Assembly (NCBI GenBank): GCA_012295275.1
Contig: CM022667.1
Location: forward strand, 13,454,001-13,518,000
Length of the DNA: 64,000 bases
Source: Chrysomallon squamiferum
Lineage: Eukaryota > Animalia > Mollusca
Direction of reading: 5' to 3'
Positions 26,717 to 56,741 of the stretch are shown piece after piece (the first letter of the stretch is position 1; each line of letters begins with the position of its first letter). Under the pieces are notes generated by a model that was not told where the DNA came from, searched no databases, and saw nothing but the letters and a program-made list of their open reading frames with translations. The position numbers and the translations under genes are program-made.

Positions 26717-28384
26717 TCACATTGATTTCTCACAAATGAAATTTCCTTTTACAGTACAGTCAAAATCATGCCATGTGTTCACCCAAAAATATAACATAAC
26801 ACAGTCTTCGTTAGAAACACCGACGTTAGGTTGATTTACTCCCCAGCTGAAAAACACTGCCTGAACTCCGTTCTCCCAAACATACACGTCTTCTGTATCC
26901 AAGTCAGTCAGTCCGATGTACAAATAGTTATCTGCGTCTGAATAATAATAAAAATAATAGTAATAATAACAATACCAATAACAACAACAACAATGAAAAC
27001 AAAAACAACAACAATGAAACAATATAAAGCTAATGCATATTTTACCTAGACCACACAGATGAAGACGGTAGGTACTGATGAAGACGTTTTTTCTCTTCTT
27101 CTTTTTCTTTTTTCTTTCTTTTTAATTATTTTTTAATTAATTGTCTATCAGCAGTGGTAGTTATATGTATGTATATATTCCTACCTATGTTTGCTTTGAT
27201 GTAGTCACCAACAGCTGTGTTTTTCTCTTCTGTGTCCAGTACAATCAGTCTTGAACCTATCTGACTGCAGGCGTCACGTGCTTCAGCAAATGTTTTGTGA
27301 TCGCTGAACACTTTGAAACATAGATTCAGTTTGTCCAGATAAACAAACCCATCTTCCACTGGACAGGAACCTGCCAGGAAATGATAATAATTTCTAAAAA
27401 GTTTTTAAAATTATAATTTGTTTTCAGAATTAAGAATAATACTTATAGTAAAGTCATATATGGATTAATTTCGTGTTTAAAGAGTAGTTCTAGAAATTTC
27501 TTTTCTATCCTACAAATATATTTACAATATGTATATTTTTAAAATTATTATTACTGTCTGCGTGTGTGTTTTGATGATTTTAAGTATATATTTTTTTAAT
27601 ATTGGTCTGTATGTGCATGTGTCTGTACATTTCTACCTGCACTCAGGTAAAAGTGCGTCCAGCCAGGTGAAGCTGAAAAGCTTGCTGAATTTATAAATCT
27701 CAAATAATGCAGACGACAAATTCCATACACATTGTACGAAAACCAAACACATGAAGAGTTATCTGCGCATCGTATCCCACAATGCCCTTGTGATGTAATT
27801 CTTTCAGCAGAAGATATGAGAGCCTTGGTTATCTCAATATTTTCAAAATTAGGATTTTTTATCCATATCATTATTGTGTTGCACCTGTGATAATAATAAT
27901 AATAATAATAATAATAATAATAATAATAATAATAATAATAATAATAATAATAATAATGTTATTTGAGAGCCTAGTTTATCTCAGCATTTTCAAAATTAGG
28001 ATTTTTCATCCACATTATTTTTTGTTGCACCTGTGATTCTAAGCATAGTAAGAACAATATTTTTTTTTATTTGAATCAGTTTGGTTACACTACCACCATC
28101 TACAGTAATTTGCTTCGTTTTGCCTACCTCAAGCCACCAGTTCTGTTAACAGTAAAATAAAATTAAAATAAGATGAGGAAAAGTTATTTTCTTATTGGTT
28201 TGATTTGATTTTATAACGACAGATTTCTCTTATTGCGATATCAAAGAATTATATTCGTTGTAAATTGTATCTCTATCCTCAGATACAGTTAGCTATATAT
28301 ATTAAAAACAGATAATACATACCTCTCGTTACCATGGCAACATATCACAATCGCCACCAGAAAAATAAATGGTGGGTAATGCAT
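26717..28384 (-). CDS. A2: secreted PAN/Apple + C-type lectin (QPN/WHD)
   Basis: Exons 28323-28384 (MHYPPFIFLVAIVICCHGNER), 27637-27884, 27185-27370, 26717-26937; GT-AG introns, open frame. Confidence 0.9.
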
Positions 28385-29347
28385 CACTCGCAAGTATGAA
28401 CGAATTTCAACCAAACTGTCCGGTATAATAATTCGCACTACGCAGTGTGTATCTCCCGAAAACAAAAAACAGTAATTTTTAAACTGTGACATACAATACA
28501 TTACGTGCAGAAAACTATTTTGACAAATAAGTTGTAGAAACATAAAGATATTTAGAGAAAAATTAAAATTTAATTAGGAACAAGATGTGATCTTTGTTGG
28601 TTTTCAAGTATCGACATTTCAGTAGTGTTTTGTTGACGTTTTGCTTTGTGATATAATAAATAGATTGGCTAGCTTTGAAAGAAGTGATTCATATTTTCTA
28701 ACATAACATAATCTCTCACGACACTGATACGTGGAAAACAAGTCACATGAAAAGACGCTTGTGTTTCACGTGAAATCTGCATGAAATCCACGATGATTTG
28801 CACAAATATCACACGTGCTCTTTTTGTATGTTTTATCCATTTGTTTATTGTTCACAAAACTTTGAAAATCCACGAGATTTCCACATATTGTCCGTGTGAC
28901 ATCAATATGTTTATTGTCAACAAGCATGTCAAATCCATGAGGGTCCCATGAATAACTCATTCCTTCACAAGGTACTTTGGCTCCAGATAATACCTGCCAG
29001 TGCAAGGGGCAAATGATTTTTTTTTCTGGTATGGCTGATGTGTTCAGCCATTGAAACAGGATCTGTGAAGTATTGTACTTATGAACATTTTTGTATACAC
29101 TTTATTTTCTGTGGAATCTTTGAGACATAATTAAGGCGTAAGGTACGTTTGAGATAATTAATGCTATAAATTAATTAATGAGTAAAATTCCTGAATGTTC
29201 GCAACTAATGTATACCTCTGGATCTCATAAAATATTGTGTATACAGGCTTCAAAATGAAAAAAAATGTGAAAAAATGTTTTATTTATTTATTAATTATTT
29301 TTATTTATTTATTTATTTATTTATTTAATTTAAATACGTTTTTCTAC

Positions 29348-30022
29348 TTGCACTGAGGCAAAAGTGCGGCCGGGTGAAGCTGAATAGCTGCCTCAATTTA
29401 TAAATCTCAAATAATGCAGACGACAAGTTCTATACACGTTGTACGAAAACAAACTAGAGGAAGAGTTATCTGCGCATCGTATCCCACAGTCACTCTGTGA
29501 TTTGACTGTGTCAGCAGAAGATATGAGAGCATTGGTTATCTCAACATTTTCAAAACTAGGATTTTTCATCAACACCATTGCCTTCTTGTATCTGTGATAC
29601 TACTACTACTACTACTACTACTACTACTACTAATAATAATAATAATAATAATAATAATAATAATAATAATAATAATAATAATAATAATAATAATGATAAG
29701 AAGAAGAAGAAGAAAAAGAAGAAGAAGAAGAAGAAGAAGAAGAAGAAGAAAAAAATAAACAAACTAATAATTTTCTTATATTATTATTATTATTATTATT
29801 ATTATTATTATTAAAAGAAAATTAAAATGAAACAATGAAAAGTTAATTTCGTCTCGGCCTGATTTTATTTTATAACGATACACTTCTCTTACTGCTATAT
29901 GAAACTATTTTATCTCTATCCTCACATATAGTTAGCAATAATAAACACAGATGTACATACCTCTCATTACCATGGCAATAGATTACAAATGCTACGAACC
30001 AAATAAATGGTTAGTAATGCAT
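29348..30022 (-). pseudogene. A3: exons 1-2 only (signal peptide + PAN), disabled
   Basis: Exon 1 (29961-30022) has TAA at codon 4. Exon 2 (~29348-29591) has Cys losses, TGA at 29393 and a frameshift. No CTLD exons follow. Confidence 0.88.
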
Positions 30023-54447: not shown

Positions 54448-55038
54448 CTCTCACAAACATGAACGGATTTCAACCAAACTGACCGCTATAATAATTTGTA
54501 CTAGATTATATGTATCTGTATTTAGTTCGGATTAAATATTGATAATCTTTCCAACAAAAGCAGACAGCTACGAGTTTAAACATTGTGATTGGGTGTTGTA
54601 TTAATAACAACACAATCAAACGCCTGAAAACACTTCGTGTCAATTGTTGTCTGGCATACTATCCAATTTCTTTTTCTATAACGTGCAGAAAAATATAATG
54701 ACAAAATTAATTATCAGTATCGCTGGCTGTTATTCGATTTTTTAAATTATTATTATTATTATTATTATTATTATTATTATTATTATTATTATTATTATTA
54801 TTATTATTATTCAGTGTAGTATTTCCATGAGAGATTAAATGAATCGTAAAAATGTTAACAAATTCAGAAAATTAAAATTTAATTAGGAACAATGTATAAA
54901 TGTGTTTTGCTTTTTCAAATACTGACATTTTACTGATCAATAATCAATATTCAGTCCGAACCAAATACAGATACTCACTGCGTAGTACAAATTATTACAC
55001 CGGACAGTTTGGTTGAAATTCTTTCATGCTTGCGAGAG

Positions 55039-56741
55039 ATGGATTATTCACCATTTATTTTTCTGGTAACGTTTGTAATCTGTTGCCATAGTAACGAGAG
55101 GTAGGTAATATCTGTTTTTGTATATTGTTAACTATATCTGAGGATAGAGATAAAATTTACAACGAATATAATTCTTTGATATTGCATTAAGAGAAATCTG
55201 TCGTTATAAAATGAAATCAAACCAAACAGAAATTAATTTTTCGTAACTTTATTTTAAATTTCCTTTACTGTTAATAGTAGAGTGGTGGTTATCGTAGGTA
55301 AAAATAAACAAAATATTCCGAGATGGTGATAATGTAACCAAACTAACCTATCTTTACTAATTCAAATATTATTATTATTATTATTATTATTATTATTATT
55401 ATTATTATTATTATTATTATTATTATTATTATTATTATCACAGGTGCAACACGAAAATGATGTGGATAAAAAATCCTGATTTTGAAAATATTGAGATAAC
55501 CAAGGCTCTCATATCTTCTGCTGAAACAATCACATCACAAAAGGATTGTGGGATACGATGCGCAGATAATTCTTCCTGTATTTGGTTTTCGTACAACGTG
55601 TATGGAACTTGTCGTCTGCATTATTTGAGATTTATAAATTCAGCAAGCTTTTCAGCTTCACCTGGCTGGACGCACTTTTACCTGAGTGCAGGTACAAACA
55701 CACACAGACACACGCACACGCACACACAAACAAAATACCTTAAATTCATTAAAGACACACACACAGAGACACATACACAAAAGGATTTTTCGATAAATAC
55801 TTTGAATTAATTGAAACACTCACAGAAAGACAGTAATAATAATTTTATAGTATATATATATTTTTTAAATTATTATTACTTTTTCTATTTTTAATTATTA
55901 TATATATATATATATATATATATATATATATACATACATACAGACATACACATTTCTAGGATTGTAAAGAAATTACTAAAACTATCCTTGTAACAAAAAT
56001 TAGCCGATATTTGACTTTACTGTTAGTGTTATTCTTAATTCTGAAAACGAATTATGGTTTTAAAAACGTTTTAGCAATTATTATCATTTCCTGAAAGGTT
56101 CCTGTCCAGTGGAAGATGGGTTTGTTTATCTGGACAAACTGAATCTCTGTTTCAAAGTGTTCAGCGATAAGAAAACTTTTTCTGAAGCACGTGACGCCTG
56201 CAGTCAGATAGGTTCAAGACTAATTGTACTGGACACAGAAGAGAAAAACACAGCTGTCGGTGACCACATCCAAGCAAACATAGGTAGGAACATAGCTATT
56301 TATATACAACTACTACTGCTAAATCTACAATTATTTCATTTACTTGACAACAAAATCTTCTATAATAAATACGGTATATTTTACCAGTTGTAACTAAATA
56401 CATTTTCAAGTGATTGTTATTATTACTGTTATTGTTATTATTGTTATTGTTGTTGTTGTCGTCGTTGTCGCTGTTTTTATTGTCGTTGGTATTTTTTTTA
56501 CTCCTGCTATTATTATTCAGAAACAGATGAATATTTATACATCGGACTGACTGATGTTGTTACAGAAGACGTGTATGTTTGGGAGGACGGAAATCAGGCA
56601 GTGTTTTTCAACTGGGGAACCAATGAACCTCACAATAGTAACGGTAACGAGGACTGTGTTGCGTTACGTTTTGCTTTAAACACATGGCATGATGTCTTCT
56701 GTTCTACCAGACTAAATTATATTTGTGAGGAACCAATGTGA
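55039..56741 (+). CDS. A8: secreted PAN/Apple + C-type lectin (EPH/WHD)
   Basis: Exons 55039-55100 (MDYSPFIFLVTFVICCHSNER), 55444-55691, 56098-56283, 56521-56741; GT-AG introns, open frame. Confidence 0.93.

What the first reader, a model, noticed from the sequence alone, without database searches (positions are those of the whole stretch)
26717..56741. A-family paralogs are mosaics (exon- and sub-exon-scale exchange)
A6 and A8 have nearly identical exon 2 (ITKALISSAE.ITSQKDCG) but divergent exon 4 (GEPHNNNLN..RFPL..VLCSRKEN vs NEPHNSNGN..RFAL..VFCSTRLN). A5 and A7 have nearly identical exon 4, but A7 exon 2 carries the A4-type SAERITSQGHCGIRCADNSSCIWF rather than the A5 STEKITSEGHCG..CVSF. 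The tract cctcacaataataatttgaacgaggactg is shared by A4, A5, A6 and A7. WEDGN is shared by A5, A7 and A8, versus WENGV in A2, A4 and A6. No single tree fits these patterns, which suggests gene conversion or unequal crossover combining modules.
Basis: partly seen in the sequence, partly recalled or inferred. Interest (0 to 1): 0.75.

Follow-up and report, generated by a model that had tools for sequence, protein, structure and literature searches.

The report
Gene conversion among snail lectin paralogs
A cluster of secreted lectin genes, in what is likely a snail, carries short DNA patches shared between non-sister copies, most likely copied by ordinary germline gene conversion and densest over the predicted sugar-binding loop; whole exons mostly follow one family tree, so this is a familiar way for gene clusters to evolve.

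Summary
All quoted motifs are present. The genes encode four-exon, predicted secreted PAN/apple + C-type lectin proteins; the nearest named relatives are in the vent snail Gigantopelta aegis. A5/A7 and A6/A8 are sister pairs from one ~10-kb tandem duplication (2.8% diverged). 'No single tree' fails at exon scale: 3 of 105 topologies fit all four exons, and much of the exon 2/exon 4 contrast is family-wide rate difference. Sub-exon exchange is real: homoplasy is about twice a no-recombination null (P<=0.003), PHI is significant only at short range, and a 68-nt tract over the EPH loop is shared by A5, A7 and non-sister A6. The lectin half of A6/A8 is also older than the duplication, introns included (P=0.0015). 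A6's left mosaic junction is exact in 2 of 4 public runs laid, its right-hand diagnostic letters in 3 of 4, arguing against an assembly chimera or somatic event. The A7/A4 exon-2 case is weak. This is ordinary germline conversion plus fast loop evolution; the scan noted similar mosaics in other genomes.

The parts
570..2154 (-). A1: PAN-CTL paralog, exon 4 truncated (likely pseudogene); outside the finding's range, used as outgroup
26717..28384 (-). A2: complete 4-exon PAN-CTL gene, 238 aa, QPN motif (exons 28384-28323, 27884-27637, 27370-27185, 26937-26717)
29347..30022 (-). A3: exons 1-2 only, with stop codons (pseudogene fragment)
34230..35716 (-). A4: complete gene, EPH motif; carries the 29-nt shared tract at 34315-34343
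38964..49486 (.). Copy 1 of the tandem duplication (A5, S1, S2, A6)
   Evidence: sharp junction with a 2-nt overlap at 49485-49486
41866..43553 (-). A5: open reading frame, but the intron-1 donor reads AT instead of GT (possibly non-functional, or an assembly error); 68-nt tract at 41933-42000
44350..44570 (-). S1: solo exon 4 remnant, open frame, in-frame acceptor, EPN motif; no significant tract shared with A genes
45120..45339 (+). S2: solo exon 4 remnant, QPN motif, acceptor out of frame; no significant tract shared with A genes
47408..49144 (+). A6: complete gene, 238 aa (exons 47408-47469, 47810-48057, 48501-48686, 48924-49144); exon 2 = PAN_1, exons 3-4 = Lectin_C
48962..48999 (+). WENGV patch of A6, identical to A4 over 38 nt; the matching patch of A8 (56559-56596, WEDGN) is identical to A7 over 38 nt; direction of copying unresolved
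49010..49077 (+). 68-nt tract identical in A5, A6 and A7 but not in A6's sister A8; spans the long loop with EPH and the EDC strand
   Evidence: junction letters in public runs
48355..49197 (+). Lectin half of A6 (intron 2 end to 3' flank), about 11% diverged in non-coding DNA from the same part of A8 (55953-56794) against about 3.5% outside it
49485..57732 (.). Copy 2 of the tandem duplication (A7, A8); lacks the stretch matching 44023-47311
52463..54447 (-). A7: complete gene; 68-nt tract at 52530-52597; 67-nt run identical to A4 in exon 2 at 53556-53622 (weak conversion candidate)
55039..56741 (+). A8: complete gene, sister of A6 by position, with an older lectin half

Best explanation
These are tandem copies of a predicted secreted PAN/apple + C-type lectin gene whose short shared patches (about 30-90 bases) were most likely copied between copies by germline gene conversion, most densely in exon 4, which encodes the predicted sugar-binding loop. 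Shown: a ~10-kb tandem duplication makes A5/A7 and A6/A8 sister pairs; introns follow that tree almost without exception, exon 4 does not; a 68-nt tract joins A6 to A5/A7; the lectin half of A6/A8 is more diverged than the duplication, introns included. Inferred: strand invasion between similar exons of close (partly inverted) copies makes the short tracts; one longer conversion or unequal crossover replaced the lectin half of A8 or A6 with that of an older paralog or old allele not in the window; the loops flanking the calcium site also change fast by point substitution, probably under selection for different ligands; birth-and-death leaves pseudogenes (A1, A3, S1, S2, perhaps A5). The likely role is microbial recognition (inferred from domain type only).
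For: Homoplasy on the best tree: 29 extra steps against 11-16 under three no-recombination rate models (P 0.001-0.003, 1000 simulations each); best tract P 0.001. PHI (own implementation) P 0.0007 and 0.0003 at 30- and 50-nt windows, 0.30 at 100 nt, as short tracts would give. A5-A6 and A6-A7 share 30 consecutive polymorphic sites, global permutation P<1e-4 of 20,000; exon 4 alone 0.003 and 0.012. Sites that break a sister pair: 14 of 27 informative sites in exon 4, 5 of 25 in exons 2-3, 2 of 75 in the aligned intron parts (Fisher 3e-8 and 0.01). Several such sites are synonymous (cds 150, 360, 573, 633), which convergent selection on the protein would not explain. A6/A8 non-coding differences 37/328 in the lectin half against 20/579 outside; scan with permutation P 0.0015; the same regions differ at only 3/151, 2/99 and 1/56 in A5/A7. 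A6-exact pieces 48970-49059 in runs X2 and X4, and 49030-49090 in X1 and X4 (49048-49090 in X2), where A7 would differ at 4 and 3 letters and A8 at 13 and 9.
Against: With silent sites only (36), none of 15 pairs gives a significant tract. Adding S1 and S2 weakens the main tract to global P 0.044 (A5-A6) and 0.099 (A6-A7), and 1 of 3 intron controls also gave a tract at global P 0.031, so the permutation test may be liberal. The 64-nt tract alone does not reject trees with A6+A8 (AU p 0.32). The upstream flank has 2 of 12 sister-breaking sites and was left out of the intron count. Direction and non-reciprocity cannot be read from one haplotype. The donor of the older lectin half is not in the window. 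The right-hand A6 junction has only 13 letters on its short side, below the tool's 31-letter bridging rule; three of the supporting runs are one study, and one could be the window's source. pN exceeds pS only modestly in the loops (0.36/0.33 and 0.44/0.29), with no formal selection test.
Confidence: 0.75

Rival explanations
1. No exchange: one tree, with positive selection and convergent or retained residues in the hypervariable lectin loops producing the apparent mosaic.
For: One topology fits all exons; exon 4 is fast family-wide; the unrelated duplicate pair C1/C3 also concentrates 18 of 28 exon-4 differences in codons 45-66, mostly amino-acid changing; silent-only test blank.
Against: Excess homoplasy and tract length survive site-specific and smoothed rate nulls; synonymous shared states; intron divergence in the A6/A8 lectin half cannot come from protein selection.
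Confidence: 0.1
2. A6 and A8 began as two old alleles of one locus, kept apart by balancing selection on the lectin half, and were placed in tandem by unequal crossover or by false duplication in the assembly.
For: Divergence peaks around exon 4 and falls away on both sides, as linkage to a balanced site would give; the 2.8% duplicate baseline is close to the allelic distance implied by word shares of 0.52-0.55 in other samples (inference).
Against: The duplication has a sharp novel junction with unique flanks; runs X1 and X4 each hold three A6-like pieces plus an A8-type loose end, more than one diploid locus can hold if each run is one animal, which is not on record. It does not explain the short tracts shared with A4, A5 and A7. 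It can be true together with the best explanation.
Confidence: 0.12
3. The mosaics are assembly or polishing chimeras made by mis-mapped reads among near-identical copies.
For: Dense microsatellites and 90-98% similar copies; the 629-bp deletion behind A6 is not in the exact A6 pieces of X1, X3 and X6, which stop fitting at 49197; A5's odd splice donor is unchecked.
Against: Exact A6 pieces across the left junction in 2 of 4 runs and across the right-hand diagnostic letters in 3 of 4. Only A6 was tested.
Confidence: 0.03
4. A programmed or somatic diversifier, with solo exons S1/S2 as donor cassettes, as in chicken immunoglobulin or lamprey VLR (systems recalled; VLR also in passages of PMC13428168).
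For: Two nearly intact solo exon-4 copies with different motifs (EPN, QPN) lie inside the cluster.
Against: No tract between S1 or S2 and any A gene (best global P 0.58); both keep intron-3 remnants, and S1 a tail of exon 3, as deletion leftovers would; the same A6 junction letters recur across samples.
Confidence: 0.03

Closest known systems
Sp185/333 (SpTransformer) cluster of the purple sea urchin (PMC3091723, passages)
   Same: Tight cluster of similar genes with segmental duplications, microsatellites, mosaic sharing of sequence, and gene conversion proposed as a cause.
   Different: Unrelated protein; there the mosaic is made of gap-defined elements across about 50 genes, here of short substitution tracts in a fixed 4-exon frame, and whole exons mostly follow one tree.
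PAN + C-type lectin proteins of Gigantopelta aegis, Haliotis and Mytilus (XP_041377129.1, XP_041375127.1, XP_071083729.1, XP_071143548.1)
   Same: Same architecture and size (233-244 aa); A6 exon pieces are 40%, 66% and 46% identical to P0001; several G. aegis copies lie on records of one contig length.
   Different: Automatically named only (mannose receptor-like, perlucin-like); a search for PAN domain + C-type lectin + mollusc + domain architecture found 0 papers; no function known from my calls.
Myticin-C of Mytilus and FREPs of Biomphalaria (PMC3164099 passages; PMC13428168 passages)
   Same: Mollusc defence genes diversified by recombination or conversion and selection on the recognition part.
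   Different: Those reports argue for somatic change within individuals; here the evidence is genomic and shared between samples, so germline.
Interlocus conversion over MHC peptide-binding exons (recalled, no paper read; search gave 1 unrelated listing)
   Same: Short tracts moved between paralogs over a ligand-binding surface.
   Different: Unrelated fold; here ligand, selection and polymorphism are untested.

Membership tests
C-type lectin domain | Pfam Lectin_C match and CTLD fold | tested here: met
   Exon 4: 51.2 bits against cut-off 22.6; exon 3 matches the start of the model weakly (16 bits). Model of homologue P0001 (mean pLDDT 81) matches collectin and mannose-binding CRDs, target TM 0.7-0.88.
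C-type lectin domain | Canonical EPN or QPD motif at the main calcium site (PMC9630629 passages) | tested here: inconclusive
   EPH in A4-A8, QPN in A2 and S2, EPN only in S1; the WND-like position (motif recalled) reads WHD in all 8 complete exon 4 copies. Sugar specificity cannot be read off.
C-type lectin domain | Calcium-dependent carbohydrate binding | not testable with these tools
   Needs protein and glycan arrays.
PAN/apple domain | Pfam PAN_1 match above cut-off | tested here: met
   A6 exon 2: 25.2 bits against 21.4.
Interlocus (ectopic) gene conversion | Short tracts of identity between non-sister paralogs beyond a single-tree null | tested here: met
   weaker when S1/S2 are added and blank on silent sites.
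Interlocus (ectopic) gene conversion | Non-reciprocal transfer with identified donor | tested here: inconclusive
   A5/A7 versus A6 and the WEDGN patch can each be read in two directions.
Exon or domain shuffling among paralogs | Incongruent trees between whole exons | tested here: not met
   3 of 105 topologies fit all four exons; only the A6/A8 lectin half shows a half-gene-scale age difference, and A4's position shifts between halves without formal rejection.
Somatic or cassette-donor diversification (FREP, VLR, chicken Ig type) | Pseudogene donors supply tracts | tested here: not met
   S1/S2 share no significant tract with A genes.
Somatic or cassette-donor diversification (FREP, VLR, chicken Ig type) | New combinations within one individual | not testable with these tools
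   Only contigs were served, no raw reads.
Sp185/333-type microsatellite-bounded exchange | Tract or duplication edges at microsatellites | not tested
   Microsatellites lie in most introns and the A6/A8 block starts within low-complexity intron 2, but enrichment over background was not measured; the short tracts end inside exons.

The most novel reading that the evidence does not exclude
An undescribed mollusc PAN-lectin family in a vent-snail lineage is still trading its ligand-binding loop and whole lectin half between copies, with different loop-flank combinations segregating among animals, so conversion acts as a standing generator of microbe- or symbiont-recognition specificities. Hints: contigs in runs X3, X6 and X7 carry the tract's diagnostic C with 11 or 17 other letters, counts that match no window copy.
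Probability: 0.2. Interest if true: 0.6.

Novelty: new member of a known kind. Interest (0 to 1): 0.3.

Why it matters
It is a clean small example of how an invertebrate lectin cluster mixes binding loops in the germline without any special machinery, in a PAN + C-type lectin family for which my searches found no paper. If the animal is a chemosymbiotic vent snail like its nearest named relative, whose C-type lectins are listed among candidate symbiont-recognition receptors (PMC7895826 passages), the swapped loops would be concrete candidates for testing ligand change. The process itself would not surprise a specialist.

Tried and rejected
No whole genome is held, so other family members could not be collected. 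Homologue search with exon 2 alone found none among 32 candidates; the profile search did. ESM Atlas gave no answer. No RNA holder was listed among 12 runs, which says nothing on expression. First fold of P0001 was unusable (pLDDT 48.5); the second was used only to confirm the fold. No window protein was folded whole. Metagenome scan gave 2 distant loci (50% and 38%), not used. An early 25% divergence for A6/A8 intron 2 was misalignment of low-complexity DNA and was replaced by segment alignments. The C1/C3 exon-4 comparison was out of frame and was redone. Rejected: S1/S2 as donors; exon-scale incongruence; A7/A4 exon 2 as a firm event. Absence of exact A6 junction pieces among those shown for X7, X3 and X6 is not taken as absence. 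Paper searches; none listed a study of conversion in mollusc PAN-CTL genes; PMC10140915 (word search only) has no whole-word hit for apple, gene conversion or EPN. No supplements were read; those of PMC7895826 may list these lectins.
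Full report
What is there. The window is AT-rich animal DNA with a cluster of four-exon genes. The A family has six complete reading frames of 238 codons (A2, A4-A8), a truncated A1, a fragment A3 and two solo exon-4 remnants S1 and S2. Exon 1 encodes a hydrophobic N-terminus read as a signal peptide (by inspection), exon 2 a PAN/apple domain, exons 3-4 a C-type lectin domain. A profile of 12 window PAN exons found 173 proteins at E<=0.001; the best same-architecture hits are from Gigantopelta aegis, with more distant ones from Haliotis and Mytilus. 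A model of the G. aegis homologue has the collectin-type lectin fold. The animal is therefore likely a snail near Gigantopelta (inference; unreviewed notes on this genome also say snail).

The observation. Every motif quoted is present. A6/A8 differ at 3/248 in exon 2 and 31/221 in exon 4; A5/A7 at 13/248 and 2/221.

Bases 38964-49486 and 49485-57732 are a tandem duplication with a sharp junction, 114/4112 (2.8%) diverged in masked sequence around A5/A7. So A5/A7 and A6/A8 are sister pairs. Exon 4 is the fast exon in all comparisons (non-sister mean 0.183, against 0.081 and 0.057), with change concentrated in the long loop and after WHD (pN 0.36 and 0.44 against 0.13 in the framework).

Exon-scale test. 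For six genes all 105 unrooted trees were scored per region. Three lie in the AU 95% set of all four exons, all with A5+A7 and A6+A8. One fits both halves of the gene, narrowly (p 0.072 for the 5' half, which prefers A4 next to A5/A7). 'No single tree fits' is thus not true of whole exons.

Sub-exon test. A GENECONV-like permutation test found 30 consecutive polymorphic sites shared by A6 with A5 and with A7 (global P<1e-4; exon 4 only 0.003 and 0.012); the run is 68 nt, 49010-49077, over the EPH loop. Simulation on the best single tree with three rate models gave 11-16 extra steps against 29 observed (P 0.001-0.003) and never reached the tract score in 1000 runs. PHI was significant at 30 and 50 nt but not at 100 nt. 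Sites that break a sister pair are 14 of 27 in exon 4, 5 of 25 in exons 2-3 and 2 of 75 in aligned intron parts; some are synonymous. Against this: silent sites alone show nothing (0 of 15 pairs, 36 sites), adding S1 and S2 weakens the main tract to P 0.044 and 0.099, and one of three intron controls gave a tract at P 0.031. The WEDGN patch is three clustered substitutions that need either A8 copying A5/A7 or A6 copying an A4-like gene (38-nt runs both ways); it is not significant alone. The A7/A4 exon-2 case is weak: global P 0.026, 0.056 or 0.48 by the set used, and 5 of 13 differences are private to A5 with A7 at consensus; A5's first splice donor reads AT, so it may be decaying.

One larger event. 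Between A6 and A8, non-coding DNA differs at 37/328 from the end of intron 2 to the 3' flank and at 20/579 outside; a scan over 947 non-coding sites gives permutation P 0.0015, and the same regions differ at about 2% in A5/A7. So the lectin half of one copy is older than the duplication: a long conversion or unequal crossover with a copy not in the window, or two old alleles set in tandem.

Artefact and soma. Twelve runs were listed, none as RNA. On 48960-49135, 4 runs were laid and 32 pieces shown, 46 not. X2 and X4 hold 48970-49059 letter for letter (40 and 50 letters either side of the left junction; A7 would differ at 4, A8 at 13). X1 and X4 hold 49030-49090 and X2 49048-49090 exactly, joining the tract's diagnostic C at 49060 to A6's own letters at 49078-49081 (13 letters on the short side, under the tool's bridging rule). 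X7 shows a piece with A7's count of differences and no exact A6 junction among those shown. X1, X2 and X4 are different samples of one study; at most one can be the source. This argues against an assembly chimera and for a germline state, for A6 only. Contigs in X3, X6 and X7 with 11 or 17 differences match no window copy, hinting at further alleles or paralogs.

Mechanism. Shown: duplication, single exon-level tree, excess short-range homoplasy centred on exon 4, older lectin half in A6/A8, A6 junction letters in other samples. Inferred: germline ectopic conversion between similar exons of nearby, partly inverted copies; one longer replacement; fast change of loops around the calcium site (role of EPN/QPD and the long loop from PMC9630629, passages); birth-and-death. 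Function in microbial recognition is inferred from domain type and from the listing of C-type lectins among recognition receptors in vent snails (PMC7895826, passages). S1/S2 are not donors.

Comparison and verdict. It works like the mosaic Sp185/333 cluster (PMC3091723, passages) and recalls myticin-C and FREP recombination (PMC3164099, PMC13428168, passages), without evidence of somatic change. My searches listed no paper on this family.

Noticed in passing
window 44350-45339: Two solo exon-4 remnants back to back between A5 and A6, with different binding motifs (EPN, QPN); S1 keeps an in-frame acceptor and lies on A7's strand 8 kb downstream, so it could in principle be spliced as an alternative last exon; S2's acceptor is out of frame.
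   Followed up: partly
window 43491: A5 intron-1 donor reads AT where A7 has GT; A5 also carries several private amino-acid changes in exon 2.
   Followed up: partly
window 10894-12219 and 61717-63506: C1/C3: a more distant PAN-CTL subfamily duplicated about 50 kb apart (91-96% alike over several kb); 18 of 28 exon-4 differences fall in codons 45-66, mostly amino-acid changing. A degenerate third copy lies at about 19447-21400.
   Followed up: partly
window 13933-14994 and 21956-23282: B1/B2: inverted pair of another PAN-CTL subfamily, about 96% alike, EPS motif, differing at two exon-4 residues next to the WGD motif.
   Followed up: partly
window about 49197 versus 56795-57430: About 630 bases of 3' sequence are missing behind A6; exact A6 pieces in runs X1, X3 and X6 stop fitting at 49197, suggesting the deletion is private to this haplotype or an assembly error.
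   Followed up: partly
window 54447-55039: Copy 2 lacks 3.3 kb between the head-to-head genes, leaving the A7 and A8 start codons only about 590 bases apart.
   Followed up: no
window 27961-28037 and 53699-54271: A2 intron 1 holds a partial copy of the start of exon 2; A7 intron 1 holds a 284-bp tandem duplication.
   Followed up: no
window about 5700-6400, 30549-31190, 36050-37900: GC-richer stretches that look like decayed DNA-transposon pieces; 30549-31190 and 36856-37445 are 79-82% alike.
   Followed up: no
window 9921-10301 and 60756-61169: Decayed exon 3-4 pseudogene pieces of the family on the + strand inside the long-range duplication.
   Followed up: no
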